Source: Elusimicrobiota bacterium
GTDB lineage: Bacteria > Elusimicrobiota > Elusimicrobia > UBA1565
Direction: 5' to 3'
Assembly: GCA_041650695.1 (NCBI GenBank)
Contig: JBAZKS010000008.1
Span: forward strand, 6,080 to 70,079
Length of the DNA stretch: 64,000 nt
How positions within the stretch are numbered: the first letter of the stretch is position 1; every line of letters starts with the position of its first letter. Of this stretch, positions 5,467 to 63,765 are shown in pieces. The notes under the pieces were generated by a model. That model saw only the letters and a program-made list of their open reading frames with translations. It was not told the origin of the DNA and ran no database searches. The translations under genes and the position numbers were made by a program.

Positions 5467-6485
5467 GAGTCGCGCCGCCTGCCGACCATGCCGACCTTGG
5501 GCACCAGCCCGTGCGGCAGCTGCCGCACCACCTCGCAGCCCGCCTCCGAGAACCAGGCGCGCATCTCCTCCTTGGTGTGCTTGCTCTGGAACGGCGGGGC
5601 CAGCCAATCGAAGTTCTCGATGAGCCGGACCTTGAAGTCCCGCTCCACCGAGAATGTCAGGTACTTGAGGAGCGGGAAGGCCCCGAGGAAGGCCAGGGGA
5701 TGGCACAGGAGGTAGAGCAGGCCCACGGGCAGGCGCGTGGTGAGCAGGCGAAGCCCGTCGCTCAGGAGCTGCCGCGTCCATACCACGGCCCAGGCGAGGC
5801 GCAGGTGGCGCCGGACCCAGTCTCTCCCCGCGCGCACGGGATTGCTGGAGAAGCTCTCGAAGGAGCCGGGGGTCCCGTAGACCCATACCGTGATGATCCC
5901 GTCGCGCCGGGTCAGCGCCGCGATCTGCCCGAACGCGGCTTTGGCGTCCGGGGTGTGATGGATCACCCCCTGGCTGTAGACGATGTCGAACACGCCGCGC
6001 TTGAACGGCGGGTGCAGCAGGTCGCCCTGCACCACGTGCAGGCTCCCCGTCTCCCGGCTCACGGGGACGAGCCGCCGGAGACTCTCGGACAGATCGAAGG
6101 ACACGACCTCGGCTCCCAGGGAGAGCGCGACCGCGGTGTAGCGGCCCATGCCGCAGCCGGCGTCCAGCACGAAGCGGCCGGCCCAGTCCCCCTCCGGGAT
6201 CTGGGTCTCCTCCAGGAATATCGCCTTGTCCTGGGGACGCCCCCCGGGGTAGCGCAGCCATTCGTAGCCGAAGGAATCCCGCGTCCGCAGCATGCGGCCG
6301 TCCCCCGTCCGCGCGAAGAACCTGGGGATCGACTCCTCGATGGGATACTCCTGGGAGCAGACCTTGCAGCGCAGGCCGCCGCTCTCGATCTCGACATCCT
6401 CCCGCGGATAATCGTCGAGGGTCGCGAACTCCAATTCCCCGCGGCATGCCGGGCAGGCCAACCGCTTGAGAAGATGCAGCTTCAT
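5463..6485 (-). CDS. Class I SAM-dependent methyltransferase with N-terminal Trm112-like zinc ribbon
   Basis: CPACRG...CKVC ribbon, then SAM motif I VLDAGCGMGRY and motif II-like DIVYSQGVIHH. Confidence 0.7.
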   Translation of the reverse strand: MKLHLLKRLACPACRGELEFATLDDYPREDVEIESGGLRCKVCSQEYPIEESIPRFFARTGDGRMLRTRDSFGYEWLRYPGGRPQDKAIFLEETQIPEGDWAGRFVLDAGCGMGRYTAVALSLGAEVVSFDLSESLRRLVPVSRETGSLHVVQGDLLHPPFKRGVFDIVYSQGVIHHTPDAKAAFGQIAALTRRDGIITVWVYGTPGSFESFSSNPVRAGRDWVRRHLRLAWAVVWTRQLLSDGLRLLTTRLPVGLLYLLCHPLAFLGAFPLLKYLTFSVERDFKVRLIENFDWLAPPFQSKHTKEEMRAWFSEAGCEVVRQLPHGLVPKVGMVGRRRDS

Positions 6486-17140: not shown

Positions 17141-17298
17141 AAAAAGCGCCGGCACCCGCTTTTGCGGGGCGACTCGGCGCGCACAGGTAGCTGGCCCGGG
17201 CCATCCATACGCCCAGCACAGCCCACCCAAACCTCGACACAGGTCTACGACTATGCATTTGTAACAGGATTCTACGAATTTGTCAAGGGCTTTTTTTA

Positions 17299-17304
17299 TA
17301 TAAT
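17299..17304 (+). promoter_or_regulatory. TATAAT hexamer in an AT-rich divergent intergenic region (pilM <-> inositol operon)
   Basis: tttttttatataatgctg lies about 35 nt upstream of the 17338 ATG. The only obvious -35-like TTGTCA sits at a 13-nt spacer, so this is non-ideal. Confidence 0.2.
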
Positions 17305-17337
17305 GCTGAAGATACTCCGAAGCCGATCCCCCGAATC

Positions 17338-25116: not shown

Positions 25117-25650
25117 ATGGCGCTGGACGACGACTTCAAAGCGGTCATCATCCGCGGCGAAGACCCGGGCGAGGAATCGCTGAGCGATAGCCTCATCCGG
25201 GAGGCGTTCGGCCGGGAGAACGAAGCCCGTCTGGTGGAAACCCTCCGCCAGAGCGCGGGATTCAACTCGAAGCTCTCGCTCGTGGCGCAGAACTGGATGG
25301 GGGTCATGGGCTACGCCCTCTTCAGCCCGGTCACGGTCCAGGCCCCGACGCCCGTCAAGGCGGCCATCCTGCATCCCGTGGCCGTGGGCCCAAAATACCG
25401 GAAGCTCGGAGCCGGAGAGCGCTTCGTGCGCCACGGCGCCCAGCGCTGCAGCGCCGTGGGGATCAACCTCATATTCACGATCTCCGCTCCCCGGTTCTTC
25501 GCGCGGCTCGGGTTCGTCCCGGCGCAAAACGCAGGCTTCATCCCAGACATCCCCCTGCCCAAGGACTCCTTCCTCGCCCTGGACCTGCTGGGCACGGCTA
25601 TCGGGAAGGTCCGTGGAAAAGTCGTTTTCCCGGAGCCTTTTAAAAAATAG
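25117..25650 (+). CDS. GNAT-family N-acetyltransferase
   Basis: 177 aa. The acetyl-CoA-binding block HPVAVGPKYRKLGAGERFVRHGAQRCSAVGINLIF fits the Q/RxxGxG/A motif. TAGATG overlap with the MIPS gene. Confidence 0.6.
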   Translation: MALDDDFKAVIIRGEDPGEESLSDSLIREAFGRENEARLVETLRQSAGFNSKLSLVAQNWMGVMGYALFSPVTVQAPTPVKAAILHPVAVGPKYRKLGAGERFVRHGAQRCSAVGINLIFTISAPRFFARLGFVPAQNAGFIPDIPLPKDSFLALDLLGTAIGKVRGKVVFPEPFKK

Positions 25651-25684
25651 ATATATATTCTATTCGCCCGCCCGCGAACCGACA

Positions 25685-25713
25685 TTGTCCGGGTCTCCCT
25701 GATTTTGTATACT
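25685..25713 (+). promoter_or_regulatory. Candidate sigma70-type promoter for bamA (TTGTCC - 17 nt - TATACT)
   Basis: A -35-like TTGTCC (25685-25690), an exact 17-nt spacer and a -10-like TATACT (25708-25713) lie about 22 nt upstream of the bamA GTG start. Confidence 0.3.
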
Positions 25714-25735
25714 GGCCAGACGTCTGATCTTTCTT

Positions 25736-49436: not shown

Positions 49437-51526
49437 CCATGACCCTGCTCTCGAGCCCGGTCCAGTACATCAAAGGCGTGGGTCCCAAGCGGGCCGAGCG
49501 CCTGGCCAGGCTCGGCATCCACACCCTGCGCGACCTCCTGTTCCATTTCCCCCGCGCCTGGGAGAACCGGCGCCCCGCCGCTCCGGGGGCCGTCCCGCAG
49601 GAAGGCCCCCTCGTGCTCAAGGGGCGGGTCAAGGAGACCTTCGAGAAGCGGGCCGGCCCGCACCTCTGCCTCTTCATCGCGAAGCTCGCGGTGCCCGAGC
49701 ACGGTCCGGTGGACGCGGTCTGGTTCAAGCGGCCCAGCCGGCGCTACGACGTGTTCCAAACGGTCAAGAGCGAGGTCGGTCCCGGGACCGACCTGTGGGT
49801 GATCGGCCGGGGTGAGGCGGACCTCCTGAAGGTCAAGCGCATCTCGGTCTACGAGTACTACCGCGCCGACGACCCGCGCGCCTCCCTCCACGTGGACCGC
49901 ATCGTGCCGGTCTACCCCACGACCGAGGACCTCCCCGAGCGCTTCCTGCGCGAGCTCGTGGACCGCGCCCTGCGGGAATGCCTGGACCACGTGCGGGAGT
50001 TCCTCCCCCCGGACATCCTCGCCCGCCGCGAGCTCCTGGCCCTGCCCCAGGCCATCGACGGGATCCACCGCCCGCGCTCGGGCGTCCAGCTCGAGGAGGC
50101 CCGCCGGCGCCTGGCTTACGAAGAGCTGCTGCTGCTGGAGATCGCGTGGTCCCTCAAGCACCGCGAGACCCGCGCGGTGCGCAAGGGCTACTCCTACGAG
50201 ATCCGCAGGAACCTGCTCACCCCGCTGCGCGAGCAGCTCGGCTTCGACCTCACCGGCGCGCAGCGCCGCGTGATCAACGAGATCTTCGACGACATGCGCA
50301 AGCCCCATCCCATGACCCGCCTGCTGCAGGGCGACGTGGGCTCCGGCAAGACCGTGGTGGCCATCGCGGCCCTGCTCCTCGCCGTGGAGAACGGCTTCCA
50401 GGGCGCGTTCATGGCCCCGACCGAGATCCTGGCCGAGCAGCACTACTGGACCTTCGGCTCGTTCCTGCGGGACCTGCCGGTACGCGTGGCCCTGCTGACC
50501 TCGGCGGTCCCAAAGAAGGCGCGCGAAAAGACCCTGGCCCGCGTCCGGGACGGCGAGATCGACATCGTGCTGGGGACCCACGCCCTCCTGGAGGGCGACG
50601 TGGCCTTCCGCAGCCTTCGGCTGGCCGTCATCGACGAGCAGCACCGCTTCGGCGTGCGCCAGCGCACGACCCTGCGCCAGAAAGGCCCTCCCCTGGACCT
50701 GCTGGTCATGACCGCCACGCCCATCCCCCGCACCCTGAGCCTGGCCCTCTACGGCGACCTCGAGGTCTCGACCTTAGACGAGATGCCCCCCGGCCGCAGG
50801 CAGACGGTGACGAGGCATGTCCCGGAGGCCGAGGCCTTGGATTTCGTCCGCGGCCAGGTGGCCGAAGGCCACCAGGTCTACATCGTCTACCCCATCATCC
50901 AGGAGTCGAGCACTCTGGACCTCAAGGCCGCGGTCGCGGAGTACGACCGCCTGTCCAAGGATGCCTTCTCCGGACTGCGGGTCTCCCTCGTACACGGCCG
51001 CATGCCCAGTTCCAAGAAGATCCGGGCCATGGAGGATTTCGGCGCCGGAAAGAGCGACATCCTCGTGGCCACTCCGGTCATCGAGGTGGGCGTGGACGTC
51101 CCGAACGCCACGGTCATGGTCGTGCAGGAGGCCGATCGCTTCGGGCTGGCCAGCCTGCACCAGCTCCGGGGGCGCATCGGCCGGGGCCGGGCGCAGTCCT
51201 ACTGCATGCTGGTCGCGGACCCGAAGACCCCGGAGGCCAAGCGCCGGATCTCCATCCTGTGCGAGACCTCGGACGGGTTCCGCATCGGGGAGGAGGACCT
51301 CAAGATCCGCGGGCCCGGGGAGGTCCTGGGGACGGCCCAGCACGGCGAGCTCTCCCTGCGGGTCGCGGACCTCGTCAAGGACACGGACCTTCTCGCGGCG
51401 GCCCGCGAGGACAGCCAGGCCCTGCTGGACGCGGACCCGGACCTCGTGCTGCCCGCCAACGACAGGCTCCGCGAGCGCATCCTGACCCGGTTCAGGCCGG
51501 AGTGGCAGTCCGTGGACCTAGCATAG
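49437..51526 (+). CDS. recG: ATP-dependent DNA helicase RecG
   Basis: Wedge N-domain; Walker A GDVGSGKT; DEQHRFG (DEAH); helicase C-domain; C-terminal RecG motif. Confidence 0.9.
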
Positions 51527-51899: not shown

Positions 51900-52835
51900 G
51901 TGGCCGCGGCTTTCCTCTCTTTTTTCCTCTGTTTTTCAGCCGGAGCCTCCCCAGCTTCCTCCGTGGACGAGGACGGCAACGTACGCGTCTCCAAGCTGGT
52001 CGAGACCGGCACGCGCACCCTGACGGGATACGACGAATTCCGATTCATCGGCTGGAACGACTCCTGCTCCGTGGCTTACCAGTACCTCAGCTTCCCCCCC
52101 GTGGGAGAGGCGCTCCAGGGAGTCCCGGTCCGCTGGGACATCGGGTCTTGGAGCATACTCCCGGAAGAGGTCGAGCCCCGTGTCTCCTGGGTGGAGCACG
52201 GGATCGCCGGGTCCTCCTGGGACCGGGGACGGGCTCAACGCGGCCTGGCATGGCTCGCGAAGCGCGGCTATTATCGCAAAGCCCGCGTGGAGCGCATCCG
52301 TCAGCCCGCGGAGAATGATCCGCCGGAACTCGACCCGATCCTGGCCTCCACCGCCGCTTTCCAGCTCGGCTACAAGACCTTGTGGCCCCCCGAGAATTTC
52401 AAGCTCCGGGAAGTCTATTACTCCCCCCTGGCGACCTGCGCCTTCTTCGTGTTCCGGGACCTCAAGAACGCCCGTGACAGCTATACCTTCAAGCTCGTCC
52501 GCATCCAGAACCCCAGCATCCGGCACCAGCGCTCGCGCATGCACGTCTCGAACGGGCTGATCTTCTATCGGGCGGCGGATATCTTCGGCGCCCTGGAAGA
52601 GCTCGCCACCGCCAGCGCCATCGACCCGGACTACGCCCTGGCCCGCTACCACCACGCCGTGCTCCTGACCACGCACGGCATGAATGACGAAGCCTTGGAC
52701 GAGCTGGCCGCGGCCCTGAAGCTCGACCCGCGCTTCGCGGAGGAAGCGAAGAAGGCTATCGAGTTCAAGAAGGTCCGCAAGGACCGCCGCTTCAAAGCCC
52801 TCATTAAGAAAGCGGCGGCGAGGCTCAAGGGATGA
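51900..52835 (+). CDS. Secreted hypothetical protein with C-terminal TPR-like helices
   Basis: GTG start. Signal peptide AAAFLSFFLCFSAGA and a C-terminal TPR-like region (IFYRAADIFGALEEL...). Confidence 0.45.
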   Translation: MAAAFLSFFLCFSAGASPASSVDEDGNVRVSKLVETGTRTLTGYDEFRFIGWNDSCSVAYQYLSFPPVGEALQGVPVRWDIGSWSILPEEVEPRVSWVEHGIAGSSWDRGRAQRGLAWLAKRGYYRKARVERIRQPAENDPPELDPILASTAAFQLGYKTLWPPENFKLREVYYSPLATCAFFVFRDLKNARDSYTFKLVRIQNPSIRHQRSRMHVSNGLIFYRAADIFGALEELATASAIDPDYALARYHHAVLLTTHGMNDEALDELAAALKLDPRFAEEAKKAIEFKKVRKDRRFKALIKKAAARLKG

Positions 52836-55800
52836 CGCATCCCCTCCGGGAGCTCCTCTCCCGCCGGATCCTTGTCCTGGACGGCGCCATGGGCACCGAG
52901 CTCCAGGCCCTGGGTCTGAGGCCCGAGGACTTCGGCGGCGCCTCCCACGAGGGGTGCAACGAGCACCTCGTGTTCACCCGGCCGGATATCGTCCGCGCCG
53001 TCCACGCGAGCTACCTGGAAGCCGGGGCGGACATCATCGAGACGAACACCTTCGGGGCGCTGCGCCATGTGCTGGCCGAGTACGGCCTGGCCGAGCGGGC
53101 CGCCGAACTGGCCCGGACCGGAGCCTCCCTCGCGGCCGCGGAAGCGCGGCGCTTCCACTCCCCGGACAAGCCCCGCTTCGTGGCCGGCTCCCTGGGCCCG
53201 GGGACCAAGTCCATCTCCCTGACCGGCGGCATCGGCTTCGACGAGGTGCGCAGGAACTACGCGGAGGCGGCCCGCGCCTTGGTCGAGGGAGGCGCGGATC
53301 TCATCCTCCTGGAAACGCAGCAGGACACGCTCAACGCCAAAGCGTCCCTGCTGGGCATCCGGGATGCGTGCGAGGCGCTGGGCCGCGCCGTCCCGACGGC
53401 GGTCTCGGTCTCCATAGAATCCACGGGGACGATGCTCGCGGGGCAGAGCCTGGAGGCCTTCTATCTCTCGGTGGAGCACCTGGATCTGCTGGCCGTGGGC
53501 ATGAACTGCGCCACTGGCCCGGATTTCATGAGCGACCACCTGCGCTCCCTGGCCGGGGTCTCGCGCCTGCCCATCCTCTGCTTCCCGAACGCGGGCCTCC
53601 CGGACGAACACGGCCGCTACCTCGAGAGCCCCGTGGAATTCGGCGCGAAGCTGCGCCGCTTCTGCGAGCAGGGCTGGGTGCACATCGCGGGCGGCTGCTG
53701 CGGCACCACGCCGGAGCATATCCGCGCCCTGGCCGCGGCCGTCAAGGGCGTCAAACCCCGGCCTCCGGCGGCCGGGCCCGCGGCGTCCTTGAGCGGGCTC
53801 GAGCCCCTCTTCTTCGATCCGGACCGCCGGCCCGTCCTCATCGGAGAACGCACCAACGTCATCGGCTCCAAGAAATTCCGGGAGCTCGTCGCCGCCGACG
53901 ACTTCGATGCCGCCGCGGAGACCGGCCGCCAGCAGGCCCGCCTGGGAGCTCAGGTGATCGACGTCTGCCTGGCCAACCCGGACCGGGACGAGCGCGCGGA
54001 CATGGGCCGCCTGCTCGACACGCTGGCCAAAAAGGTCAAGATCCCGTTCATGATCGACTCCACCGACCCGGCCGTGGTGGAGGAGGCGCTGAAACGCTGC
54101 CAGGGGAAAGCCGTCATCAATTCCGTCAACCTCGAGGAGGGCGAGGGCCGCTTGCGCCGCATCGTCCCCCTGGCCCGGAGCTACGGCGCCGCGCTCGTGG
54201 TCGGCATGATCGACGAGGACAAACAGGCGGGCATGGGAGTCACGCGAGAGCGCAAACTCGCCATCGCCCGGCGCAGCCATGAGCTTCTGACCGGAAAATA
54301 CGGCATGCGGCCCGAAGACCTCTACCTCGACCCGCTCACCTTCCCCTGCGCCACCGGGGACAAAGCCATGGCGGGCTCCGCGGTCGAGACGATCGAGGCC
54401 CTGCGCCTGATCAAGGCGGAGTTCCCGCGAGTCAAGACCCTGCTCGGCGTTTCCAACGTCTCCTTCGGCCTGCCTAAAGCCGGCCGCGAGGTGCTCAACG
54501 CGGTGTTCCTGCATCATTGCGTGGAGGCCGGCCTGGACCTGGCCATCGTGAACGTGCAGGGCCTGGCCCGGTACGCGACGCTCCCCGAGGAGGAGCGGCG
54601 CCTGGCCGAGCGCCTGCTCTTCGAAAAGGACCCGCCGGTGGCCGAGTTCGCGAACCGCTACCGGAACGTCCAGGCCAAGGCCGAGGAGAAGCACCCCTTC
54701 GAAGGGCTGAGCGCGGAGGAGCGGCTCTTCCGAAAAGTGGTCGAGGGCTCGAAAGAGGCCTTGATTGGCGACCTCGACGGCCTGCTCAAGACCCGAGGCC
54801 CCCTGGAGATCATCAACGGCCCCCTGCTGCGGGGCATGGCCGAGGTCGGCCGGCTCTTCGGCGACAACAAGATGATCGTGGCCGAGGTGCTGCAGTCCGC
54901 GGAGGTCATGCGGGCCTCGGCGGCCCATCTCGAGGGCTTCATGGACAAGGGCTCCGCCGCGGCCAAGGGGAAGCTGCTGTTGGCCACGGTCAAGGGCGAC
55001 GTGCACGACATCGGCAAGAACCTGGTGCACATCATCTTCGCCAACAACGGCTACGAGGTGCTGGATCTGGGGATCAAGATCGCCCCGGAGGCCCTCATCC
55101 AGGAGGCCAAGCGCTTCGGACCGGATCTGATCGGCCTTTCCGGGCTCCTGGTCAAGTCCGCCCAGCAGATGGCCTCCACGGCGGAGGACCTCGCCTCGGC
55201 AGGCATCCAGGCGCCCATCCTAGTGGGAGGCGCGGCGCTCACCCCGCGTTTCACCGCGAACAGGATCGCGCCCAAGTACGAGGGCCCGGTGTTCTACGCC
55301 AAGGACGCCATGGCCGGCCTGGCCCTGGCCGAGGAGCTGCGGGATGCGGGGAAGAGAGAGGAACGGATCAGACTGAACGACAAGAGGCAGAAGGAATTCC
55401 TCATAGAGAACGACAACACGGCGGCAGAGAACAGCTCGTCCTCAAGGGCCGCGACAGCGGCCCTTGAGGATATCCCGAATCGCCCGGGCAACGTCATCGG
55501 ATGCCCGGGCACCGCGGATAAAGATGTTCCCCCCATCCCGCAGCCGCCCGACCTGAAGATGCACGTCCTCACGGACATCCGCCTCGATGATATCTTCAAG
55601 TACCTCAATCCCTTGATGCTGTACGGCAAGCACCTGGGGCTCAAGGGGAACCTCGAGCGCCTGCTCGCGGCCGATGACCCCAAGGCCGTGGAGCTCCACA
55701 AGAAGGTCACCGCTCTGCAGGAGGAGGCCGTCTCCGGAAAGCTCATCGTCCCGAAAGGGCTGTTCAGGTTCTTCCCGGCCCGGTCCGAAGGAGACGACAT

Positions 55801-56311
55801 CGTGCTCTACGATTCGCCTTCAGGCGGGAAGGCGCTGGAGCGCCTGCATTTCCCGCGCAAAGGCTCCTGCCTGGCCGACTACCTCGCCTCGGACAGGATG
55901 GATTATCTCGCCCTCTTCGTGGTCACCTGCGGGCATGGCGTGGCCGCCCGGGCCGCATCCCTGCGGGAGGCGGGCGAGCTCCTGAAGTCGCACGCGCTCT
56001 CGGCTTTGGCCATCGAGTCCGCCGAGGCCTTCGCCGAGCTCCTGCACGAGAGGATCCGGGCCATGTGGGGCTTCTCGGACGCGCCGGACCTGAGCCTGCG
56101 GGACAAGTTCCAGGCCCGCTACCGCGGCAAGCGCTACAGCCTGGGCTATCCGGCCTGCCCGAACATCGAGGACCAGGCCAAGCTCTGGCGCCTGCTCGAA
56201 CCGGACCGCCTGATCGACGTGCGCCTGACCGAGGGCTTCATGATGGAGCCCGAGGCCTCGGTCTCAGCCATGGTCTTCCATCACCCCGAAGCCCGGTATT
56301 TCTCGGTGTAA
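52832..56311 (+). CDS. metH: Cobalamin-dependent methionine synthase MetH
   Basis: 1159 aa. All four modules are present: Hcy-binding (S-methyltransferase), pterin-binding, B12-binding (DVHDIGKN, the DxHxxG motif) and AdoMet activation domain. ATGA overlap with the upstream gene. Confidence 0.9.
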   Translation: MTHPLRELLSRRILVLDGAMGTELQALGLRPEDFGGASHEGCNEHLVFTRPDIVRAVHASYLEAGADIIETNTFGALRHVLAEYGLAERAAELARTGASLAAAEARRFHSPDKPRFVAGSLGPGTKSISLTGGIGFDEVRRNYAEAARALVEGGADLILLETQQDTLNAKASLLGIRDACEALGRAVPTAVSVSIESTGTMLAGQSLEAFYLSVEHLDLLAVGMNCATGPDFMSDHLRSLAGVSRLPILCFPNAGLPDEHGRYLESPVEFGAKLRRFCEQGWVHIAGGCCGTTPEHIRALAAAVKGVKPRPPAAGPAASLSGLEPLFFDPDRRPVLIGERTNVIGSKKFRELVAADDFDAAAETGRQQARLGAQVIDVCLANPDRDERADMGRLLDTLAKKVKIPFMIDSTDPAVVEEALKRCQGKAVINSVNLEEGEGRLRRIVPLARSYGAALVVGMIDEDKQAGMGVTRERKLAIARRSHELLTGKYGMRPEDLYLDPLTFPCATGDKAMAGSAVETIEALRLIKAEFPRVKTLLGVSNVSFGLPKAGREVLNAVFLHHCVEAGLDLAIVNVQGLARYATLPEEERRLAERLLFEKDPPVAEFANRYRNVQAKAEEKHPFEGLSAEERLFRKVVEGSKEALIGDLDGLLKTRGPLEIINGPLLRGMAEVGRLFGDNKMIVAEVLQSAEVMRASAAHLEGFMDKGSAAAKGKLLLATVKGDVHDIGKNLVHIIFANNGYEVLDLGIKIAPEALIQEAKRFGPDLIGLSGLLVKSAQQMASTAEDLASAGIQAPILVGGAALTPRFTANRIAPKYEGPVFYAKDAMAGLALAEELRDAGKREERIRLNDKRQKEFLIENDNTAAENSSSSRAATAALEDIPNRPGNVIGCPGTADKDVPPIPQPPDLKMHVLTDIRLDDIFKYLNPLMLYGKHLGLKGNLERLLAADDPKAVELHKKVTALQEEAVSGKLIVPKGLFRFFPARSEGDDIVLYDSPSGGKALERLHFPRKGSCLADYLASDRMDYLALFVVTCGHGVAARAASLREAGELLKSHALSALAIESAEAFAELLHERIRAMWGFSDAPDLSLRDKFQARYRGKRYSLGYPACPNIEDQAKLWRLLEPDRLIDVRLTEGFMMEPEASVSAMVFHHPEARYFSV

Positions 56312-56439
56312 GCCGCAGCGGCACCGAACCCCTTCTTGCGCCGCCCCGCACCGACCACCACCACGCCCTGCGCCGCTGTCAAGAAAATCTGGAGCTAGAA
56401 ACAGAAAAATCATTATCCCATATGCATTTTTCTATTTTC

Positions 56440-56457
56440 AATGATGGCGCCATCATT
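56440..56457. promoter_or_regulatory. 18-bp perfect palindrome AATGATGGCGCCATCATT inside an AT-rich island; candidate operator or recombination site
   Basis: The palindrome lies inside a ~140-bp segment (about 56380-56525) of roughly 30-35% GC, in a locus that is otherwise about 65-70% GC. Confidence 0.3.
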
Positions 56458-56548
56458 AGAAATGAAAAAACGACGGCATCCGAAAGATATTTTCTCTTCA
56501 AGGTCCAGATGAGGGAACTTTCTTAGGGTCCCGCTCGTACTAGCTGTT

Positions 56549-57562
56549 ATGGAAGACAGCGAACGCGAGGATGGACTCGGTCTCATAGGCGGACTCGAAG
56601 GCTCCAAGAACCCCGGGGATGTGCTGGACCTCGTGAGCATGACGAAGGGGAGCCTGGTCAATGTCGAAACCGCGCGCGACATCGAAACAGAGATAAACCA
56701 CTGCACGAGACTGAACGATACCGAGCTCTGGGAAGGCCTGCCCCGGCTGGCCCGTGGGGAGCGGGAACAGCTCGCCAAATTCCTCATTCACCTGGGAGAG
56801 ATTGAACGAAGAGACCTGCATCTCGATCACGCCCACTCAGGCTTGTTCACCTATCTGGTGATGCTGGGATTCTCTGAATGGGAGGCGCGCGCTCGAGCCG
56901 TAGCCGCGCATAAGGCGCGGGACTTTCCGTCCATCCTGACCCTGCTGGCCACGGGCCGTCTGCACCTGTATGCGGTGGTGCTGCTCGCGCCGCACCTGAC
57001 CTCGGAGAACCACGAATCCCTACTCAACAAAGCCTGCCGAAGGACCACTCGCGAACTCCAAGCCATGATCGCCGCAATGGACCCGGGTACAGCCAGGCGG
57101 GATGTCATCCGAGTCGTTTCAGCCCCTGCGCCCGCGGCCTCGCTGGACAACGGACCCGACGCAGGGGGTGCGTCATGCGCGACACCGGCGTTCCCTCCGG
57201 CTGCGAGTCCGGCTTCCGCCCCGCCTCCTGACGGAGGCGACATCCTGTTCCCCGAGTTTGGAGCACCTCCGCATCCGGGCTCTCCGGCGGACGGCGCAGC
57301 GTCGACTGCGATGCGACCCGCGGACTGCTGCGGCCAAGCGGGCTCGACCCGCCTTCGGTTCTCTTTCGACGGCGACGAGGAGCTCGAAAAGTCGTTCCGG
57401 AGGGCGCAGGAGCTGCTCAGGCACAAGTATCCCTACGGCGCCATGGGACACATCTTCCACGATGCGCTGCAGGCGCTGCTGGACCGCATCGATCCGGACC
57501 GGCGCATCGCGAGGAAGCTGGCCAGGGCAAGACGGCGCGGTAGGCTGGGAGCAACGCAATGA
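56549..57562 (+). pseudogene. DUF222-like (HNH endonuclease N-terminal region-like) ORF lacking the HNH nuclease domain; probable truncated mobile-endonuclease remnant
   Basis: 337-aa ORF with DUF222-like helices (FLIHLGEIERRDLHLDHAHSGLFTYLVMLGF...LATGRLHLYAVVLL) and a low-complexity Ala/Pro tract. It terminates inside the first copy of the 63-bp tandem repeat before any CxxC/HNH motif. Confidence 0.35.
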
Positions 57563-57753
57563 CCTACCGTGCCGAGGCATCCGATGCCGTTGCCTCGGCG
57601 CAGTGGGCTGGGAGCAACGCCGTGACCTACCGTGCCGAGGCATCCGATGCCGTTGCCTCGGCGCAGTGGGCTGGGAGCAACGCCGTGACCTACCGTGCCG
57701 AGGCATCCGATGCCGTTGCCTCGGCGCAGTGGGCTGGGAGCAACGCCGTGACC
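57531..57753. repeat. Tandem direct repeat, 63-bp unit x ~3.5 copies, each with a 9-bp-stem hairpin
   Basis: Unit ggctgggagcaacgcCGtgacctaccgtgccgaggcatccgatgccgttgcctcggcgcagtg spans 57542-57604, 57605-57667, 57668-57730, with a partial copy to ~57753. Copy 1 differs only at CAATGA vs CCGTGA. The internal inverted repeat is GCCGAGGCA-11nt-TGCCTCGGC. Confidence 0.85.
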
Positions 57754-57794
57754 TCGAGGAATAGGGCCGAAGAATGTGGTAAGTTCTTTTCCTG

Positions 57795-59426
57795 ATGACG
57801 CTCCAGGCGGTCCTGCTTCCTTTGTCGTTCCTCTTTCTGGGCCACGCCGCGGCCCCCCAGAAATCCCGTACGCCCCAGGACGCCCTGCGCGAGATGGAAC
57901 TCATCTGCGCGCGGCAGGCCAAGCTCCACCCCGCGGACGCCAGGCCCCTGGAAGCCAAGCTGGAAGCCTACGCCGTCGAGTTCCGCTCCTTCGGCCGAAA
58001 AGCCACGCCGCTGCTCTCCTGGTACATCCGCAACCAGGAAAGGCCTCTCAAGATGCGGCTCTACGCCGCCGCGTTCCTGGGCATGATCGCGGACCCGGCC
58101 GGCCTGACGAGCCTGAAGGCCTGCGTGCGCGACCCGGAAGAGGACGCGGGGCTCCGCTCCGCGGCCCTCCTGAACATCGGCTCGCTGGGGCTGAGCCCCC
58201 ATGACCTGCGGCCGTTCCTGGAGGAAGCCGCGGCTCTCAAGAACCCGGAACCCGTAATCCGGGAAGCCTTTTCCCAGCTCTCGGACATAGGCTGCTCGGA
58301 CGTGAAGCTGGCCGCGAAAGCCGCGAAGCGCCATGGCTCGGACCCGGAGGGGGCTGAAGCGGCGACAGCCGCCCACGCGGTCCTGGCCCTGTCTCGGTGC
58401 CCCTCCAAGGACGCGGACCCCGCGCTCCTCAAGCTCCTGCGCTACTTCAAGAAGGGCTCGACGCTCCGCGGCAAGGTCCTCTCCGGCCTGACGTGGCGCT
58501 GGCTCGCGGCCAAACCCGTGGACCTCGGACCTAAGTCCCTGTCCGGCGAAGACATCGACGACATCACGGACGTGGTGTTCCAGGAGAAAGAGGTCCCGGC
58601 CCTGCAGGCCTGCCGCCTGCTCGGCGGCTTGGCGGACAAGCGGGCCACCACCGGGCTGGTGCGCGCCCTGAGCAGGGTGCAGGACCCCATGGTGGTCGCC
58701 GAGGCGGCGCAGGCCCTGGCATCCATCGGCGACCCGAAGGCCGCGGAGCCGCTTCGCAGGCTCCATCAGGGCCTCGCCTCGGACCCCAGGTTCTCGGCCG
58801 CCCGGATCGACCCCAAGCCCTACGCCTTGACGATCCAGCGGGCTGCGGAGCTGTTCGAAGCTCCGGCCCCGGAACAGGCTCCGGCGGAGCCGGCCCCCGA
58901 AAAAGCCCTCGCGTTCCGCTACGAGGGCTGGCCGGGCTCGGGCCAGCCCAAGCCTTCCTGGAGCGGGGCCGTGGAGAGCCTTTCCCTGCTCGAGTCCCCC
59001 CGCCGGGGCTCGAAGGTCTCGGCCACGTTCAAGCCGGTCCCGGGGACCGTCTTGGAGTTCGACGAATCCTGGGTCATCACCGTGACCCCGGGCCGGGCCA
59101 GGGCGAAGCGCGCGGTGACATTGGACGCCCGGCAGCTCGGGCCCGCGGCCGAGCTCCCCCGCTCCAAGTACGACGGGCCGGCGGTGCGCAAGGACCTCGT
59201 CCTGAAGGATGGAGACCGGGTGGAAGTGCTCTCCTACCGGGAAGAGGGGCAGTGCTTCCTGCGCTTGGGCCCGCAGGTCTTCCTCGCCCCCTGCCCGCAG
59301 GACGACCCGTCGGCGTTCGACATGCTGGAGGAGCCGGATGTGGAATGGTGGCTCCATGCCAAGCTGCGCGCCGCGCAGGGCTGGTTCGAGTCGAAGAACG
59401 AAGGGGTGGAGTTCCTGCAGCGCTAG
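57795..59426 (+). CDS. Secreted HEAT/PBS-lyase-like repeat protein
   Basis: Signal peptide LLPLSFLFLGHAAA and repeated ...D(P/E)xxR..A..ALG.IG... HEAT-like units. Confidence 0.55.
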   Translation: MTLQAVLLPLSFLFLGHAAAPQKSRTPQDALREMELICARQAKLHPADARPLEAKLEAYAVEFRSFGRKATPLLSWYIRNQERPLKMRLYAAAFLGMIADPAGLTSLKACVRDPEEDAGLRSAALLNIGSLGLSPHDLRPFLEEAAALKNPEPVIREAFSQLSDIGCSDVKLAAKAAKRHGSDPEGAEAATAAHAVLALSRCPSKDADPALLKLLRYFKKGSTLRGKVLSGLTWRWLAAKPVDLGPKSLSGEDIDDITDVVFQEKEVPALQACRLLGGLADKRATTGLVRALSRVQDPMVVAEAAQALASIGDPKAAEPLRRLHQGLASDPRFSAARIDPKPYALTIQRAAELFEAPAPEQAPAEPAPEKALAFRYEGWPGSGQPKPSWSGAVESLSLLESPRRGSKVSATFKPVPGTVLEFDESWVITVTPGRARAKRAVTLDARQLGPAAELPRSKYDGPAVRKDLVLKDGDRVEVLSYREEGQCFLRLGPQVFLAPCPQDDPSAFDMLEEPDVEWWLHAKLRAAQGWFESKNEGVEFLQR

Positions 59427-61108: not shown

Positions 61109-61731
61109 CCCCTAGGCTCGCGGCCCTGCTTCTGGCGGCTGCGGCCCTGTCCGTGCCCTCCCGCGGAGCGTCCGGCCTCGGCCGCGAGCCGGCCCATGAG
61201 CCGGCGGCTCCGACGGACGCCGTCTTCGACCCGGTGCTCCGCGGCATCGAGCTCAAGATGCCCGAGTACCTCGCCATCGAGGAAAGCGGCGTACGCGTCC
61301 CGGCCGAGACCATCGAGCTGGGGCAGTCGAGCGAGCAGTACCGCTGCTGGCGGCTGCGCCTGACCGGCGGACACGGCAAGCAGGCCCGCTCGCTGCTCGA
61401 GCGGCTGTCCTCGCTGCAGACCCATCTCAAGGACCTGCGGGCCAACCTCCTGCGCGACATGGCCCGCTACGAAGGGGCGCCGAAGCCCAACCCCGACCTG
61501 GAGTCCCGCGTCGCCTCGCAGAAAGCCGCCCTGGACGAGCTCGCGGCCCGCTTCAACGACCTCGTGAAACTGGGGACGCGGACCGGATTCCTGGTCGAAT
61601 CGGAGAACGCCCTGCTCGGCGGCAAACGCCGGCTGTCTCCGGTCATCCGCAAGGAAGACTACACCATGGTCCATGACGCGTCCGCGCCCGGCTGCCCCCC
61701 CAAGGAGCCCGGCGGGAACCCCGGAGGATAG
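61105..61731 (+). CDS. Secreted hypothetical protein
   Basis: 208 aa with signal peptide LAALLLAAAALSV. ATGA overlap with the upstream gene. Confidence 0.4.
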   Translation: MTPRLAALLLAAAALSVPSRGASGLGREPAHEPAAPTDAVFDPVLRGIELKMPEYLAIEESGVRVPAETIELGQSSEQYRCWRLRLTGGHGKQARSLLERLSSLQTHLKDLRANLLRDMARYEGAPKPNPDLESRVASQKAALDELAARFNDLVKLGTRTGFLVESENALLGGKRRLSPVIRKEDYTMVHDASAPGCPPKEPGGNPGG

Positions 61732-61735
61732 GGCG

Positions 61736-62287
61736 GTGTCCAAGACTCCAGCCGAGGAGTTTGTGGAACGGAACGCGAAAATGGTCTACAACCTGGCGCT
61801 GCGCCTGCTGGGGCGGGAAGCGGATGCCGAGGACCTCGCGCAGGATTCCCTGCTCCGAGCCCTGAAGGCCCTGCCCTCGTTCAAGGGCGAGTCCTCCGAG
61901 ACGACCTGGGTATACCGCATCACGGTGAACACCTGGAAGAACCGGGTGCGCTCCGAGAAGCGCCGCGGCCTCTGGAAGCTGATGCCCCTAGACCTCCTGT
62001 TCGGCTCGGACGACGACGACTCCGGGCGGGAGGAGACAATCCCGGCCAAGGACGCCCCTCTTGACGCCTCCCTGTCGAGCGCCGAGACGTCCGAGCAGGT
62101 GCAGAAGGCCCTGCTGGAGCTCGACGAGGAGTCCCGGGCCGTGGTGGTGCTGCGCGAACTGCAGGAGCTTTCCTATGAGGACATCGCCGCAGCCCTCGAT
62201 ATCCCGGAGGGGACCGTGAAATCGAGGCTTTCGCGCGCACGCGAGGCGCTCAAAAAACGCCTGTCCAGATTCGTGGAGGTCGGATGA
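61736..62287 (+). CDS. ECF sigma factor (sigma-70 family)
   Basis: GTG start with a GGAGGA SD 7 nt upstream. Region 2 LAQDSLLRALKALPSFKG...WVYRITVN and region 4 LRELQELSYEDIAAALDIPEGTVKSRLSRAR. Confidence 0.85.
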   Translation: MSKTPAEEFVERNAKMVYNLALRLLGREADAEDLAQDSLLRALKALPSFKGESSETTWVYRITVNTWKNRVRSEKRRGLWKLMPLDLLFGSDDDDSGREETIPAKDAPLDASLSSAETSEQVQKALLELDEESRAVVVLRELQELSYEDIAAALDIPEGTVKSRLSRAREALKKRLSRFVEVG

Positions 62288-63765
62288 GCGAACACGTGCG
62301 GGATCTGCTTTCTTCCTACGTAGACGGAGCCCTCCCCGCCGCGGACCGCGCCCGCGTGGACAAGCACCTCCACGGGTGCAAGCAGTGCTCGGAAGAGCTC
62401 GAGGGGCTCAAGAAGGTCTCCAAGATGGTCTCGTCGCTTCCGCGGAAGGAGCTTCCCCCGGGCTTCATGGACAGGCTCAAGGCCAAGATGAAGGCGGAAG
62501 AGAAAAAGCCCGCGGCCTCGACCGGGTTCTCGCTGCCTTTCAGCCTGCCCAAGCTCTCCGTCCCGATGAGAGTCGCGGCTTTCGCCGCGACCGGAGTGCT
62601 GGTCTGCCTGATCACGTTCCGGGAGATCAAGTTCAGGATGGCCCCGTCCATCCTGCCCGATTCCATGGACCTGGCCGCGCCCATGACCGCCGGCGCCGCG
62701 GATACGGAAGTGGACCGATATATGGCCAGCCAGAGCGCCGCGGGCGCACGGGAGAGAGGCATGTGGTCCGGCCTGGAGCAGTCCGCGGAGAACGCCGGAG
62801 CGTCGGTGAAGGAGGACCTCAACTCCCTGCGGCGCAAGCTGGAGACGCGTGGAGTCTTGGACCTCAAATTCGCCAAGAAGAGCCTCCGCCGCATAGGCGC
62901 TCCGGTGGCCGCCGAAGCTGCGCGCGGGTCGGCCGACATGACCAGCTCGAACGAGGACCTCCAGGGATTCCTGCAGAATGAGCGCCGGCGCATGGGCATC
63001 CAGGAGATCATCCCGCCGTCCGCCGCGCCGGACCCGAAGGAAGTGTCGCCGGGTCTGGCCATGCCCCCCGGGCCGCAAGGCAACGCCTGGGAAGGCGTGC
63101 CGGACAGGCCCATGTCCCGGGAAGAGGCCATGGCGGGCGTGCGGCAGATGGCGTCGAACCTCTCCCGCATGAACGAGAACTACCGGTGGCAGAAGAACCC
63201 GACCGTTCCCATGGACACCGGGTTCTCGAGCAAGCCCAAGATACTCGCCTCCAAGAGCAAATCCCAGCCCCTGGGCGCGAAAGAGGGCGCCCCGGCCAAA
63301 ACGGCGGATCACCTGACCTCGCCTCTCGCCGAGGCCAAGGGCGGGGGCGCCGCCGTGGCCTCGGGCGACTCCTTCGCCTTCGTCAAGAAAGAGACGCTCG
63401 TGCGCAGACCCCTCTACTGGACGCGGACCTGGTCCAACAGGCAGGGCGGGATGGGGACGGCCGGCGGGGCCGTCATCCGCAGACCGGACCACTTCGAGGA
63501 CCTCTGGAGCCGGGTCAAGTTCGAGCCCGCGCTCCCTCCCGTGGATTTCAATAAGAATATGGTCGTGGCCGTGTTCGCCGAGCACTCCGAGACGGAGAGC
63601 CGTTCCGTGGAGATCGTCTCGCTGATCGAGGAGGACGGCCGCATATTCATCCGATTCCGCGTGAAGACCGACGAGTCCGCGGGCGCGGTCAAGCCTACGG
63701 ACCCCTACCACGTCGTCATCGTCCCGGCCTCGGACCTGCCCTACACCTTCACCCAGGTCGACTAG
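62284..63765 (+). CDS. Anti-sigma factor with N-terminal zinc-finger (zf-HC2-like), one TM and a large extracytoplasmic domain
   Basis: N-terminus LSSYVDGALPAADRARVDKHLHGCKQCSEEL (HxxxCxxC). ATGA overlap with the sigma gene. TM segment VAAFAATGVLVCLI. Confidence 0.7.
   Translation: MSEHVRDLLSSYVDGALPAADRARVDKHLHGCKQCSEELEGLKKVSKMVSSLPRKELPPGFMDRLKAKMKAEEKKPAASTGFSLPFSLPKLSVPMRVAAFAATGVLVCLITFREIKFRMAPSILPDSMDLAAPMTAGAADTEVDRYMASQSAAGARERGMWSGLEQSAENAGASVKEDLNSLRRKLETRGVLDLKFAKKSLRRIGAPVAAEAARGSADMTSSNEDLQGFLQNERRRMGIQEIIPPSAAPDPKEVSPGLAMPPGPQGNAWEGVPDRPMSREEAMAGVRQMASNLSRMNENYRWQKNPTVPMDTGFSSKPKILASKSKSQPLGAKEGAPAKTADHLTSPLAEAKGGGAAVASGDSFAFVKKETLVRRPLYWTRTWSNRQGGMGTAGGAVIRRPDHFEDLWSRVKFEPALPPVDFNKNMVVAVFAEHSETESRSVEIVSLIEEDGRIFIRFRVKTDESAGAVKPTDPYHVVIVPASDLPYTFTQVD

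What the first reader, a model, noticed from the sequence alone, without database searches (positions are those of the whole stretch)
56380..56525. Approximately 140-bp AT-rich island (~30-35% GC in a ~67% GC locus) containing an 18-bp perfect palindrome AATGATGGCGCCATCATT
Composition drops abruptly immediately after the metH stop and recovers at the next ORF. Inside the island is a perfect 18-bp inverted repeat (56440-56457, GGCGCC core) flanked by further A/T runs (catatgcatttttctattttca ... ttagaaatgaaaaaa). This looks like a horizontally acquired junction, a strong UP-element/nucleoid-protein binding region, or an operator for the adjacent mobile-looking gene. It is the most anomalous non-coding stretch in the window.
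Basis: seen in the sequence. Interest (0 to 1): 0.5.

Follow-up and report, generated by a model that had tools for sequence, protein, structure and literature searches.

The report
Control region of an inserted gene
The AT-rich patch with its perfect palindrome is real, and it is most likely the control region (probable repressor site plus a stress-type promoter) of a nuclease-less HNH-family gene that was inserted between two normally adjacent genes in an Elusimicrobiota genome; it is neither a scar nor an insertion-sequence end.

Summary
Window 56385-56524 is by far the lowest-GC 140-bp stretch (35.7% against 67%), and AATGATGGCGCCATCATT is a perfect 18-bp palindrome at 56440-56457.

The island belongs to the downstream gene (ORF337, 56549-57562). 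This gene is an HNH-less member of a DUF222-like HNH-endonuclease family that occurs in several copies per genome in Elusimicrobia.

- Close homologues in four other genomic contexts carry the same 16-mer and a homologous AT-rich arm.
- More distant homologues carry different long perfect palindromes that follow the protein clades.
- 26 of 29 Elusimicrobia loci have GGAAC-N15-18-CGTA just before the gene, usually 8-9 nt before the ATG. This reads as an ECF-sigma-type promoter giving a leaderless mRNA.
- Relatives have metH directly abutting the HEAT gene, so island plus gene is a ~1.48-kb insertion.

Best reading (about 0.55): the palindrome is an operator bound by a symmetric dimer, probably the gene's own product, upstream of an ECF-type promoter. 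Rivals are a foldback/MITE-like element (one gene-less copy exists), a cis site for nuclease action or mobility, or an unrelated regulator. No binding or transcription has been shown. Interest is moderate.

The parts
52832..56311 (+). metH (B12-dependent methionine synthase). This is the left flank of the insertion and not part of the element.
   Evidence: TIGR02082 1138 bits and five Pfam domains. In relatives its stop overlaps or abuts the HEAT gene start.
56312..57790 (+). About 1.48-kb insertion relative to the ancestral metH|HEAT junction. It comprises a GC-rich spacer, the AT island, ORF337 and a tail. The right boundary is approximate.
   Evidence: Empty sites: L165/L166 (metH 77-78% and HEAT 85% identical) have ...GCCTGATG... 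with stop and start overlapping. L168 has a 5-nt gap. L167 has an 82-nt gap by the called genes, with a possible C-terminal metH extension that was not resolved.
56374..56510 (.). Conserved AT-rich module (the 'island'), an imperfect ~124-bp inverted repeat centred on the palindrome.
   Evidence: Lowest GC in the window. Homologous sequence lies upstream of gene homologues in L037, L009, L008, L039 and L164, and in the gene-less L081 (alignments). It is 82% identical to L037, against 66% at third codon positions.
56387..56396 (.). Left outer inverted-repeat arm, ATCTGGAGCT.
   Evidence: Pairs with 56501-56510. The same pair is ATCTGGAC/GTCCAGAT in L081 and ATTCGGAC.../...GTCCGAAT in L039, a change on both arms.
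56440..56457 (.). Perfect 18-bp palindrome AATGATGGCGCCATCATT (conserved 16-mer at 56441-56456). Proposed operator for a symmetric dimer.
   Evidence: The identical 16-mer is present in L037, L009 and L008; L039 has the variant TTCATGAGAGCGCCCTCATGAA, which differs at corresponding positions of both arms and has one mismatched pair; L164 has GTTAGGAGGACGTCCTCCTAAC instead.
56501..56510 (.). Right outer inverted-repeat arm, AGGTCCAGAT, 3 nt upstream of the -35 element.
   Evidence: The right arm between the palindrome and this motif is deleted in L037 and L008, so it is dispensable.
56514..56539 (+). ECF-sigma-type promoter motif: GGAAC (-35, 56514-56518), a 17-nt spacer, then CGTA (-10, 56536-56539).
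   Evidence: GGAAC-N15-18-CGTA is found just upstream of the gene in 26 of 29 Elusimicrobia loci. The window holds 4 matches against 0.62 expected; the others were checked at the ORF level only, and at least two lie inside long ORFs. ECF hallmark is AAC at -35 and CGT at -10 (PMC8103513).
56549..57562 (+). ORF337, an HNH-less member of a DUF222-like HNH-endonuclease family. The start codon is 9 nt after CGTA with no Shine-Dalgarno sequence, so the mRNA is probably leaderless.
56412..56441 (-). Sigma-70-like promoter match on the minus strand (TTGAAA-N18-TGgGATAAT), abutting the palindrome and pointing towards metH. Its status is uncertain.
   Evidence: 10 of 12 positions match, plus the TG. 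A GATAAT/CATAAT/GAGAAT element at the same place in L008, L009 and L037 was seen by eye; it is absent in L039 and L081. Such matches are expected in AT-rich DNA.
57533..57754 (+). 63-bp tandem repeat, 3.5 copies, starting inside the last 30 nt of ORF337. It is a local expansion and not a conserved part of the cassette.
   Evidence: TRF score 416 with 97% matches. L001 (an otherwise identical contig from another assembly) has about 1.5 copies and L037 has none.
57795..59426 (+). HEAT-repeat protein gene. This is the right flank of the insertion and not part of the element.
   Evidence: PF13646. Orthologues directly follow metH in relatives.

Best explanation
The island is the 5' cis-regulatory module of a small inserted gene cassette.

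The cassette (about 56312-57790) sits between metH and a HEAT-repeat gene, which are directly adjacent in relatives. Its gene, ORF337, is a nuclease-less member of a DUF222-like HNH-endonuclease family that occurs in several diverged copies per Elusimicrobia genome.

Transcription is proposed to start from an ECF-sigma-type promoter (GGAAC-N17-CGTA, 56514-56539) at the right edge of the island. The start site would fall on or next to the ATG, giving a leaderless mRNA.

The perfect palindrome, 65 bp upstream of the -35 element, is proposed to be an operator read as double-stranded DNA by a symmetric dimer. The most likely binder is ORF337's own N-terminal helical domain (ParB/KorB-like), giving autoregulation in the manner of KorB. 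The flanking A/T tracts and the outer inverted repeat would provide bendable DNA or auxiliary contacts.

Shown here: the composition and the palindrome; the insertion; the co-inheritance of island and gene; the conservation; the family-wide promoter motif; and the clade-specific palindromes.

Inferred, not shown: that the motif is a promoter used by an ECF sigma; that the mRNA is leaderless; that any protein binds the palindrome; and which protein that is.
For: 1. Island and gene are inherited together. The exact 16-mer and a homologous AT-rich arm lie upstream of ORF337 homologues that are 56-70% identical, in unrelated neighbourhoods: L003/L009 between an AbiEii-like gene and tgt, L004/L008 after Fe-S assembly genes, and L037. 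The 52% and 46% homologues (L039, L164) keep the AT-rich island, but their core palindrome is altered symmetrically or replaced.

2. The island is under constraint. The island-left arm plus palindrome is 82% identical between the window and L037. Third codon positions of the gene are 66% identical, and the sequence to the left of the island cannot be aligned.

3. There is a family-wide architecture. GGAAC-N15-18-CGTA precedes the gene in 26 of 29 loci from the genome scan. In 17 of 30 loci (counted by eye from the sequences printed) CGTA is 8-9 nt before the ATG with no room for a Shine-Dalgarno sequence, whereas loci with longer leaders (L029, L164) have GGAGG/AGGAGG.

4. Palindromes are enriched beside this promoter. 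A perfect arm of 9 nt or more (spacer 2 nt or less) lies within -110 to +90 of GGAAC in 15 of 30 loci, against 1.3% of 952 background windows. For arms of 10 nt or more the figures are 9 of 30 against 0.1%.

5. Palindrome type and position follow the protein clades, and paralogues within one MAG have different palindromes (for example L009, L015 and L021 of JACQWX). This argues for private sites rather than one global regulator.

6. Most of the strong palindromes are symmetric through the centre with no spacer (GGCGCC, GTTAAC, GGTACC, GCCGGC, GACGTC). That is expected for recognition of double-stranded DNA by a dimer and is not needed for a hairpin loop.

8. The empty site in relatives contains no palindrome, so the palindrome arrived with the cassette.

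9. An ECF sigma and zf-HC2 anti-sigma pair is encoded in the window, so ECF-type promoters are plausible in this organism.
Against: - The ParB/KorB resemblance is weak. Foldseek against the PDB found nothing with E below 2.5. An HMM of the N-domain found no PDB sequence at E up to 10. No Pfam HTH or ParB family matches.
- The stretch I take to be the recognition helix (SEWEARARAVAA) is nearly the same in proteins whose palindromes differ (P0001 against P0009).
- One close homologue keeps the promoter but has no island (L038). One metagenome contig has the island with no promoter motif or family gene on its right (L081; only 120 nt are available on its left). Island and gene are therefore separable.
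- The distance from the palindrome to the -35 element varies from 10 to about 75 nt, and the right arm is deleted in two lineages.
- The exact 16-mer is also the presumptive operator of an unrelated VapBC-like operon in 30 of the 120 metagenome contigs retrieved. The sequence therefore does not point to this protein family.
- No transcription start site or binding data exist. A Myxococcales relative lacks the GGAAC..CGTA motif.
Confidence: 0.55

Rival explanations
1. The island is a small non-autonomous foldback (MITE-like) element, or a relic of one, comparable to Correia or ERIC elements. It would have inserted next to the gene's promoter in an ancestor and been carried along, perhaps contributing promoter or bending activity, with no specific link to the gene product.
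For: The island is a ~124-bp imperfect inverted repeat with 10-13-bp outer inverted repeats that change on both arms together. A gene-less copy exists beside a hydrogenase maturation protease gene (L081). A close homologue has the promoter and gene without the island (L038).
Against: There is only one copy in 64 kb, even with 3 mismatches allowed. No target-site duplication is seen at the three intact copies (read). The two arms within a locus are no more complementary than arms from different loci. The wider family shows different palindromes at the same promoter-proximal place in many paralogues, which independent MITE insertions would not produce. In L164 the island is homologous but its core palindrome has been replaced.
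Confidence: 0.15
2. The palindrome is a cis site for DNA transactions of the cassette rather than for transcription. It could be a cleavage or nicking site for HNH-bearing paralogues (for mobility or as a self-marker), or a parS-like site. The nuclease-less ORF337 would be a degenerate or protective binder.
For: The family is an HNH endonuclease family, with about 18 of 31 Elusimicrobia copies keeping HNH. Copies sit at different loci and at least one is a demonstrable insertion. The fully symmetric palindromes resemble restriction-type or parS-type sites. The N-domain's best structural matches are ParB-family DNA-binding domains.
Against: The clade that has lost HNH still conserves its palindrome. 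The palindrome is inside the cassette, not at the empty target. The insertion sites share no evident sequence. No ParB N-terminal CTPase domain and no ParA partner were seen. Each locus has only one site. No relatives were found in viral contigs.
Confidence: 0.13
3. The palindrome is bound by a regulator encoded elsewhere, such as a ribbon-helix-helix antitoxin-type repressor or a nucleoid-associated protein attracted by the AT-rich bent DNA. The island would be an ordinary upstream regulatory or silencing region.
For: The identical 16-mer overlaps the start codon of an RHH-like antitoxin in a VapBC-type operon in 30 of 120 metagenome contigs, so other protein families read this sequence. AT-rich islands in GC-rich genomes are classic targets of xenogeneic silencers (general knowledge). 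The putative recognition helix does not vary with the palindrome.
Against: Paralogues in the same genome each carry a different palindrome, which would require many separate trans regulators. Palindrome type follows the phylogeny of the adjacent protein.
Confidence: 0.1
4. The island is transcribed and acts as RNA, either as a long hairpin in a 5' leader from an upstream promoter or as a small RNA.
For: Both strands fold into a long hairpin with z = -2.67. Sigma-70-like hexamers occur in the island.
Against: No Rfam family matches at gathering score, and only chance-level hits appear at E up to 10. The fold follows trivially from the DNA dyad. The centre of the palindrome is itself symmetric, which a loop does not need. 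The right arm is deleted in two lineages. There is no within-locus excess of arm complementarity. The conserved promoter motif lies downstream of the island. No terminator was found.
Confidence: 0.04
5. The island is a compositional accident or decaying junk at an insertion junction and has no function.
For: It lies inside an insertion, and parts of it are deleted in some lineages.
Against: It is conserved above synonymous sites. The 16-mer is identical across proteins 56-70% identical in different contexts. Changes to the palindrome are symmetric.
Confidence: 0.03

Closest known systems
KorB/ParB-type repressor with a palindromic operator (the OB sites of plasmid RK2)
   Same: A perfect or near-perfect palindrome of 13-22 bp lies at a variable distance from the regulated promoter. 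The best structural matches of the adjacent protein's N-domain are KorB and ParB DNA-binding domains. KorB acts from sites next to the -35 element or far from it (PMC11790492).
   Different: No ParB N-terminal CTP-binding domain, no ParA or KorA partner, a single site per locus, and no sequence-level similarity. Relatives fuse the domain to an HNH nuclease instead.
DUF222-HNH endonuclease genes (the REP13E12-type repeat family of Actinobacteria)
   Same: A helical N-terminal domain followed by a C-terminal HNH domain, several diverged copies per genome, no known function, and suspected mobility. Four of 81 relatives give weak PF02720 hits and 19 give PF01844 hits.
   Different: ORF337 and its 11 closest relatives lack the HNH domain altogether. 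ORF337 itself has no Pfam hit. As far as I could find, the ECF-type promoter with a private palindrome has not been described for DUF222 genes (one search found nothing relevant).
ECF-sigma-dependent promoters (sigma-W/sigma-E type: AAC at -35, CGT at -10)
   Same: GGAAC(TTT)-N15-18-CGTA matches the ECF hallmark (PMC8103513). An ECF sigma and anti-sigma pair is encoded in the window.
   Different: The cognate sigma is unknown and no start site has been mapped. In 17 of 30 loci the motif sits 8-9 nt before the ATG, implying leaderless mRNAs, which is unusual for described ECF regulons.
Controller (C) protein operators of restriction-modification systems and autoregulated toxin-antitoxin operators
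   Same: A small palindromic operator lies next to the promoter of a mobile nuclease-related gene and autoregulation is presumed. The identical 16-mer is the apparent operator of a VapBC-like operon in metagenomes.
   Different: There is no methyltransferase, toxin or partner gene in the cassette. The protein fold is not a C-protein HTH or an RHH.
Bacterial foldback repeats and MITEs (Correia/NEMIS, ERIC)
   Same: About 125 bp, an imperfect inverted repeat, AT-rich, intergenic, next to a promoter, with one solo copy known.
   Different: No target-site duplication, not multicopy in the 64 kb examined, and linked to one gene lineage.

Membership tests
ECF-sigma-dependent promoter | A -35 element containing AAC (GGAAC) and a -10 element containing CGT, separated by about 16-17 nt | tested here: met
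   GGAAC-N17-CGTA at 56514-56539. The same motif lies before the gene in 26 of 29 loci. Consensus features are from PMC8103513.
ECF-sigma-dependent promoter | A transcription start about 6-8 nt downstream of the -10 element, dependent on a specific ECF sigma | not testable with these tools
   Only the spacing is available: CGTA is 8-9 nt before the ATG in 17 of 30 loci (counted by eye). An ECF sigma gene is at 61673-62287, but nothing links it to this promoter.
Palindromic operator of an autoregulated DNA-binding protein (KorB/ParB-like) | A dyad-symmetric site near the regulated promoter, conserved among orthologues, with symmetric substitutions | tested here: met
   The 16-mer is identical in four lineages. 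L039 differs at corresponding positions of both arms, leaving one mismatched pair. The site is enriched near the promoter across the family.
Palindromic operator of an autoregulated DNA-binding protein (KorB/ParB-like) | The adjacent gene product has a sequence-specific DNA-binding (HTH) domain homologous to the ParB/KorB DNA-binding domain | tested here: inconclusive
Palindromic operator of an autoregulated DNA-binding protein (KorB/ParB-like) | A ParB/Srx N-terminal CTPase domain and multiple sites or spreading | tested here: not met
   No ParBc Pfam hit. One site in 64 kb.
Palindromic operator of an autoregulated DNA-binding protein (KorB/ParB-like) | Demonstrated binding and repression | not testable with these tools
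   Needs EMSA, DAP-seq or reporter assays.
DUF222-like HNH endonuclease family | An HNH catalytic domain (PF01844) | tested here: not met
   ORF337 has no Pfam hit. The alignment shows that P0001-P0012 end before the HNH block that P0013-P0015 retain.
DUF222-like HNH endonuclease family | The N-terminal helical domain shared with HNH-bearing relatives | tested here: met
   219 homologues with E as low as 1e-223; 30-40% identity to HNH-bearing proteins over about 80% of the query. The PF02720 match itself is weak (4 of 81 relatives, E 0.0026).
MITE or foldback repeat (Correia/ERIC-like) | Terminal inverted repeats | tested here: met
   ATCTGGAGCT and AGGTCCAGAT. The equivalent pairs are present in L081 and L039.
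MITE or foldback repeat (Correia/ERIC-like) | A target-site duplication and many dispersed copies per genome | tested here: inconclusive
   No duplication is seen at three intact copies. There is one copy in 64 kb and one solo copy in a metagenome.
Insertion sequence end or transposon | A transposase or integrase gene bounded by matching ends | tested here: not met
   The only ORF in the insertion is ORF337. No conserved 3' tail or matching right end exists.
Intrinsic terminator of metH | A GC-rich hairpin followed by a U-tract | tested here: not met
   Zero terminator-like sites in 56000-57000. The palindrome is preceded by T-runs and followed by A-runs.
Known structured RNA (Rfam, including the HNH-associated HEARO/IscB omega RNA) | A covariance-model match at gathering score | tested here: not met
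   No hit in the whole window at gathering score. Only chance-level hits in 56200-56700 at E up to 10.
Homing endonuclease gene | An active nuclease and a conserved target sequence at the insertion sites | tested here: not met
   There is no nuclease domain in ORF337. The insertion contexts are unrelated, although the target sequences were not compared systematically.

The most novel reading that the evidence does not exclude
Elusimicrobia may harbour a previously undescribed class of self-contained selfish cassettes. Each would consist of a private long perfect palindrome, an ECF-sigma-dependent leaderless promoter, and a ParB/KorB-like-HTH-HNH gene. On this reading the palindrome is the cassette's own cis site, for recognition, nicking or partition as well as autoregulation. 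Protein and site would co-evolve to keep paralogues orthogonal, and nuclease-less derivatives such as ORF337 would be domesticated repressors or immunity factors against active paralogues.
Probability: 0.15. Interest if true: 0.7.

Novelty: new variant of a known kind. Interest (0 to 1): 0.4.

Why it matters
If the reading holds, it assigns a first cis-regulatory logic to a large uncharacterised gene family (DUF222-like HNH proteins, several copies per genome in an uncultured phylum). It predicts a stress-sigma-controlled, leaderless and autoregulated expression mode. It also supplies about a dozen natural protein/palindrome pairs that could be tested directly as orthogonal DNA-binding modules.

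It also shows that a sharp AT-rich island in a GC-rich genome can mark the promoter-operator of an old insertion rather than a recent junction. None of this addresses a long-standing open question, and the mechanism remains inferred.

Tried and rejected
- Rfam, over the whole window at gathering score and over the island at E up to 10: nothing credible. tRNA/tmRNA search: none. Terminator scan: none.
- Exact 16-mer scan of JGI metagenomes. None carried the family gene or the promoter motif. One true island homologue was found (L081), and 30 loci belonged to an unrelated VapBC-type operon. The scan was therefore largely uninformative about island copy number.
- Pfam, NCBIfam, PADLOC and PHROGs on ORF337: no hits. 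Pfam at E up to 10 on the N-domain: only noise.
- Profile search of the N-domain against PDB sequences: no hit. Foldseek against the PDB: not significant. The afdb50 library was not available.
- Covariation between the island's arms (within-locus against cross-locus complementarity): no excess, so a selected long hairpin was rejected.
- Other GGAAC..CGTA matches in the window: checked at the ORF level only; at least two lie inside long ORFs and none is evidently upstream of a gene, so they do not add support for a regulon.
- Search for conserved sequence to the left of the island or to the right of the stop codon across loci: none, so no element ends could be defined.
- Viral contigs: no relatives.
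- Myxococcales relative (L161): no ECF motif.
- Literature search for DUF222/HNH and for Elusimicrobia ECF promoters: nothing directly relevant.
Full report
**1. Observation**

The window is 67.0% GC. The lowest-GC 140-bp stretch is 56385-56524 at 35.7%, and the next lowest anywhere in the window is 44.3% (100-bp profile). AATGATGGCGCCATCATT is a perfect 18-bp palindrome at 56440-56457.

- metH at 52832-56311 (TIGR02082 1138 bits);
- an unannotatable 337-aa ORF at 56549-57562;
- a HEAT-repeat gene at 57795-59426.

Two corrections apply. GC stays near 65% for about 62 nt after the metH stop and only falls at about 56376. The island is also more structured than described. It is a ~124-bp imperfect inverted repeat, with outer arms ATCTGGAGCT (56387-56396) and AGGTCCAGAT (56501-56510), and 22-nt inner arms that are 82% complementary around the perfect core.

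**2. What the neighbouring gene is**

ORF337 matches no Pfam, NCBIfam, PADLOC or PHROGs model. It does have 219 homologues. The source names attached to the closest ones are Elusimicrobia/Elusimicrobiota MAGs, and some more distant ones are named Myxococcota or Myxococcales; several are annotated as HNH endonuclease or McrA.

The 11 closest relatives, like ORF337, end just before the HNH block, whereas more distant ones retain it. In total, 19 of 81 aligned relatives hit PF01844 and 4 weakly hit DUF222. In 31 Elusimicrobia loci, about 18 copies have HNH and about 13 do not.

A genome scan returned 29 loci, 26 of them in records titled Elusimicrobia or Elusimicrobiota MAGs. There are often 2-3 diverged copies per MAG. 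No relatives were found in viral contigs.

**3. The island travels with the gene**

Homologues that are 56-70% identical sit in unrelated neighbourhoods:
- L003/L009 lies between an AbiEii-like gene and tgt.
- L004/L008 lies after Fe-S assembly genes.
- L006 lies after a giant NHL-repeat protein.

Even so, L009, L008 and L037 carry the exact 16-mer ATGATGGCGCCATCAT and a homologous T-rich left arm (alignment).

The 52% homologue (L039) has TTCATGAGAGCGCCCTCATGAA, which differs from the window's palindrome at corresponding positions of both arms and has one mismatched pair. The 46% homologue (L164) keeps a recognisably homologous AT-rich arm (AAACAGAAAAAT...), but its core is a different perfect 22-mer, GTTAGGAGGACGTCCTCCTAAC.

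Between the window and L037, the left arm plus palindrome is 82% identical. Third codon positions of the gene are 66% identical, and the DNA to the left of the island cannot be aligned. The island is therefore under purifying selection.

**4. There is an insertion**

Orthologues of the HEAT protein were located.
- In L165/L166 (metH 77-78% and HEAT 85% identical to the window) the metH stop overlaps the HEAT start (GCCTGATG).
- In L168 the gap is 5 nt.
- In L167 the gap is 82 nt by the called genes, with a possible C-terminal metH extension that I did not resolve.

L037 shares the window's right junction with the HEAT gene. So about 56312-57790 is a ~1.48-kb insertion. It is shared by two lineages whose ORF337 proteins are 70% identical, and it is absent from a lineage of similar relatedness. 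The empty site contains no palindrome, so the palindrome came with the cassette.

No conserved left leader, 3' tail, matching ends, target duplication or recombinase was found.

**5. A family-wide promoter motif**

In 26 of the 29 scanned loci the gene is preceded by GGAAC-N15-18-CGTA. In the window this is at 56514-56539. The motif occurs 4 times in the window against 0.62 expected; I checked the other three at the ORF level only, and at least two lie inside long ORFs.

AAC at -35 and CGT at -10 are the hallmark of ECF sigma promoters (PMC8103513). The window itself encodes an ECF sigma and a zf-HC2 anti-sigma.

In 17 of 30 loci (counted by eye from the sequences printed) CGTA lies 8-9 nt before the ATG with no Shine-Dalgarno sequence. 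Loci with longer leaders (L029, L164) do have GGAGG or AGGAGG. I infer leaderless transcripts; this has not been shown. A Myxococcales relative lacks the motif.

**6. Private palindromes**

Long palindromes are strongly enriched beside this promoter. A perfect arm of 9 nt or more lies within -110 to +90 in 15 of 30 loci, against 1.3% of 952 background windows. For arms of 10 nt or more the figures are 9 of 30 against 0.1%.

The sequences differ by clade. Examples:
- GCATATCGCGCGATATGC (L011);
- a 42-bp perfect palindrome with TTATCCACA arms (L019);
- CAACTGTTTTT-G-AAAAACAGTTG (L021);
- GGTGTTGTTAACAACACC, immediately after the -10 element (L029);
- ACTGTTGGCGCCAACAGT (L031);
- GAACTGTTGCCGGCAACAGTTC (L033);
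- CAACTGACGGTACCGTCAGTTG (L036).

Paralogues in one MAG have different palindromes. Most of the strong palindromes have no spacer and are symmetric through the centre. Selection for a hairpin would not maintain that, whereas recognition of double-stranded DNA by a symmetric dimer would.

**7. The protein**

- SopB and other ParB-family proteins lower down.

This fits a palindrome-binding dimer, and KorB is known to repress from operators next to or far from promoters (PMC11790492). The support is weak, however. Foldseek, a PDB profile search and Pfam found nothing. The helix I would take as the recognition helix barely varies between proteins with different palindromes.

**8. Complications**

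- L038 (58% identical) has the promoter and gene but no island.
- L081, the only true island homologue among the 120 metagenome hits to the 16-mer, has the island but no promoter motif or family gene on its right. It lies downstream of a convergent hydrogenase maturation protease gene, and only 120 nt are available on its left.
- The right arm is deleted in L037 and L008, so the palindrome-to-promoter distance ranges from 10 to about 75 nt.
- The arms within a locus are no more complementary than arms from different loci.
- The RNA fold z-score of -2.67 on both strands simply reflects the dyad.
- The identical 16-mer overlaps the start codon of an RHH-like antitoxin in a VapBC-type operon in 30 of the 120 metagenome contigs. 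The sequence is therefore a generic good operator and not a signature of this family.

**9. Verdict**

The island is most probably the promoter-operator module of an old inserted HNH-family cassette. It combines an ECF-type promoter at its right edge with an upstream perfect palindrome that a symmetric dimer reads as double-stranded DNA. The gene's own product is the most economical candidate binder (confidence about 0.55).

Rivals, in order:
1. a foldback/MITE-like element carried along with the gene (0.15);
2. a cis site for nuclease action, mobility or partition (0.13);
3. a site for an unrelated regulator or silencer (0.10);
4. an RNA element (0.04);
5. no function (0.03).

It does not qualify as an IS end, terminator, known RNA, ParB-parS system or homing endonuclease, because defining features of each were tested and not met. 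I class it as a new variant of a known kind (an autoregulated promoter-operator of a mobile nuclease-family gene), of moderate interest.

Noticed in passing
window 57533-57754: A 63-bp tandem repeat of 3.5 copies at 97% identity begins inside the last 30 nt of ORF337. Each unit contains a GCCGAGGCA...TGCCTCGGC hairpin. An otherwise identical contig from another assembly (L001) has only about 1.5 copies, and the sister lineage L037 has none. This is either a real copy-number polymorphism or an assembly difference.
   Followed up: partly
L042, L043, L046, L050, L056, L061, L064, L079, L123 and others (30 of the 120 loci L040-L159): The exact 16-mer ATGATGGCGCCATCAT recurs in a conserved unrelated context, GTGATGGC|ATGATGGCGCCATCATG|AATGCACGCAC... 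Its last ATG starts a ~90-100-aa protein (MNARTQITMDPELQRRAQAKAAELGISFAEYIRRLV...), which is followed by a PIN-like ORF. This looks like a VapBC-type toxin-antitoxin operon that uses the same palindrome as its presumptive operator.
   Followed up: partly
L019 3867-3908; also L015, L018, L026, L028: One paralogue clade has 40-44-bp palindromes whose outer arms are TTATCCAC(A)/(T)GTGGATAA, identical to the DnaA-box consensus. In L019 the palindrome is a perfect 42-mer. Whether DnaA or the adjacent protein reads them is unknown.
   Followed up: no
window 61673-62287 and 62284-63765: An ECF sigma factor (Sigma70_r2/r4_2) and a zf-HC2 anti-sigma factor lie about 5 kb downstream of the island. The pair is conserved at the same relative position in L165, L167 and L168. 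No GGAAC..CGTA motif was seen upstream of the sigma gene.
   Followed up: partly
window 56549-56671: ORF337 and its L037 orthologue carry a 41-codon N-terminal extension (MEDSEREDGLGLIGG...). It sits between the conserved ATGGA start and the point where all other homologues begin (M-E/D-x-I-E-x-E-I).
   Followed up: no
window 56412-56441, minus strand: A sigma-70-like promoter match (TTGAAA-N18-TGgGATAAT, 10 of 12) abuts the palindrome and points towards the 3' end of metH. A -10-like GATAAT, CATAAT or GAGAAT is at the same place in L008, L009 and L037. It could be a divergent or antisense promoter, or chance in AT-rich DNA.
   Followed up: partly
window 49773-49794; also 5511-5528 and 18499-18516: There are other perfect palindromes in GC-rich sequence. 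AGGTCGGTCCCGGGACCGACCT (22 bp) is the longest in the window. GTGCGGCAGCTGCCGCAC and GATCCGGCCGGCCGGATC are 18 bp each. None was examined.
   Followed up: no
window 25638-25777 and 17215-17354: These are the second and third lowest-GC 140-bp stretches (44-45%). They are much less extreme than the island and were not examined.
   Followed up: no
L165 about 320-330; L166 about 1215-1225: In relatives without the insertion, the metH stop and the HEAT-protein start overlap (TGATG). This suggests translational coupling of metH with this HEAT-repeat gene, and the insertion has broken that arrangement in the window's lineage.
   Followed up: partly
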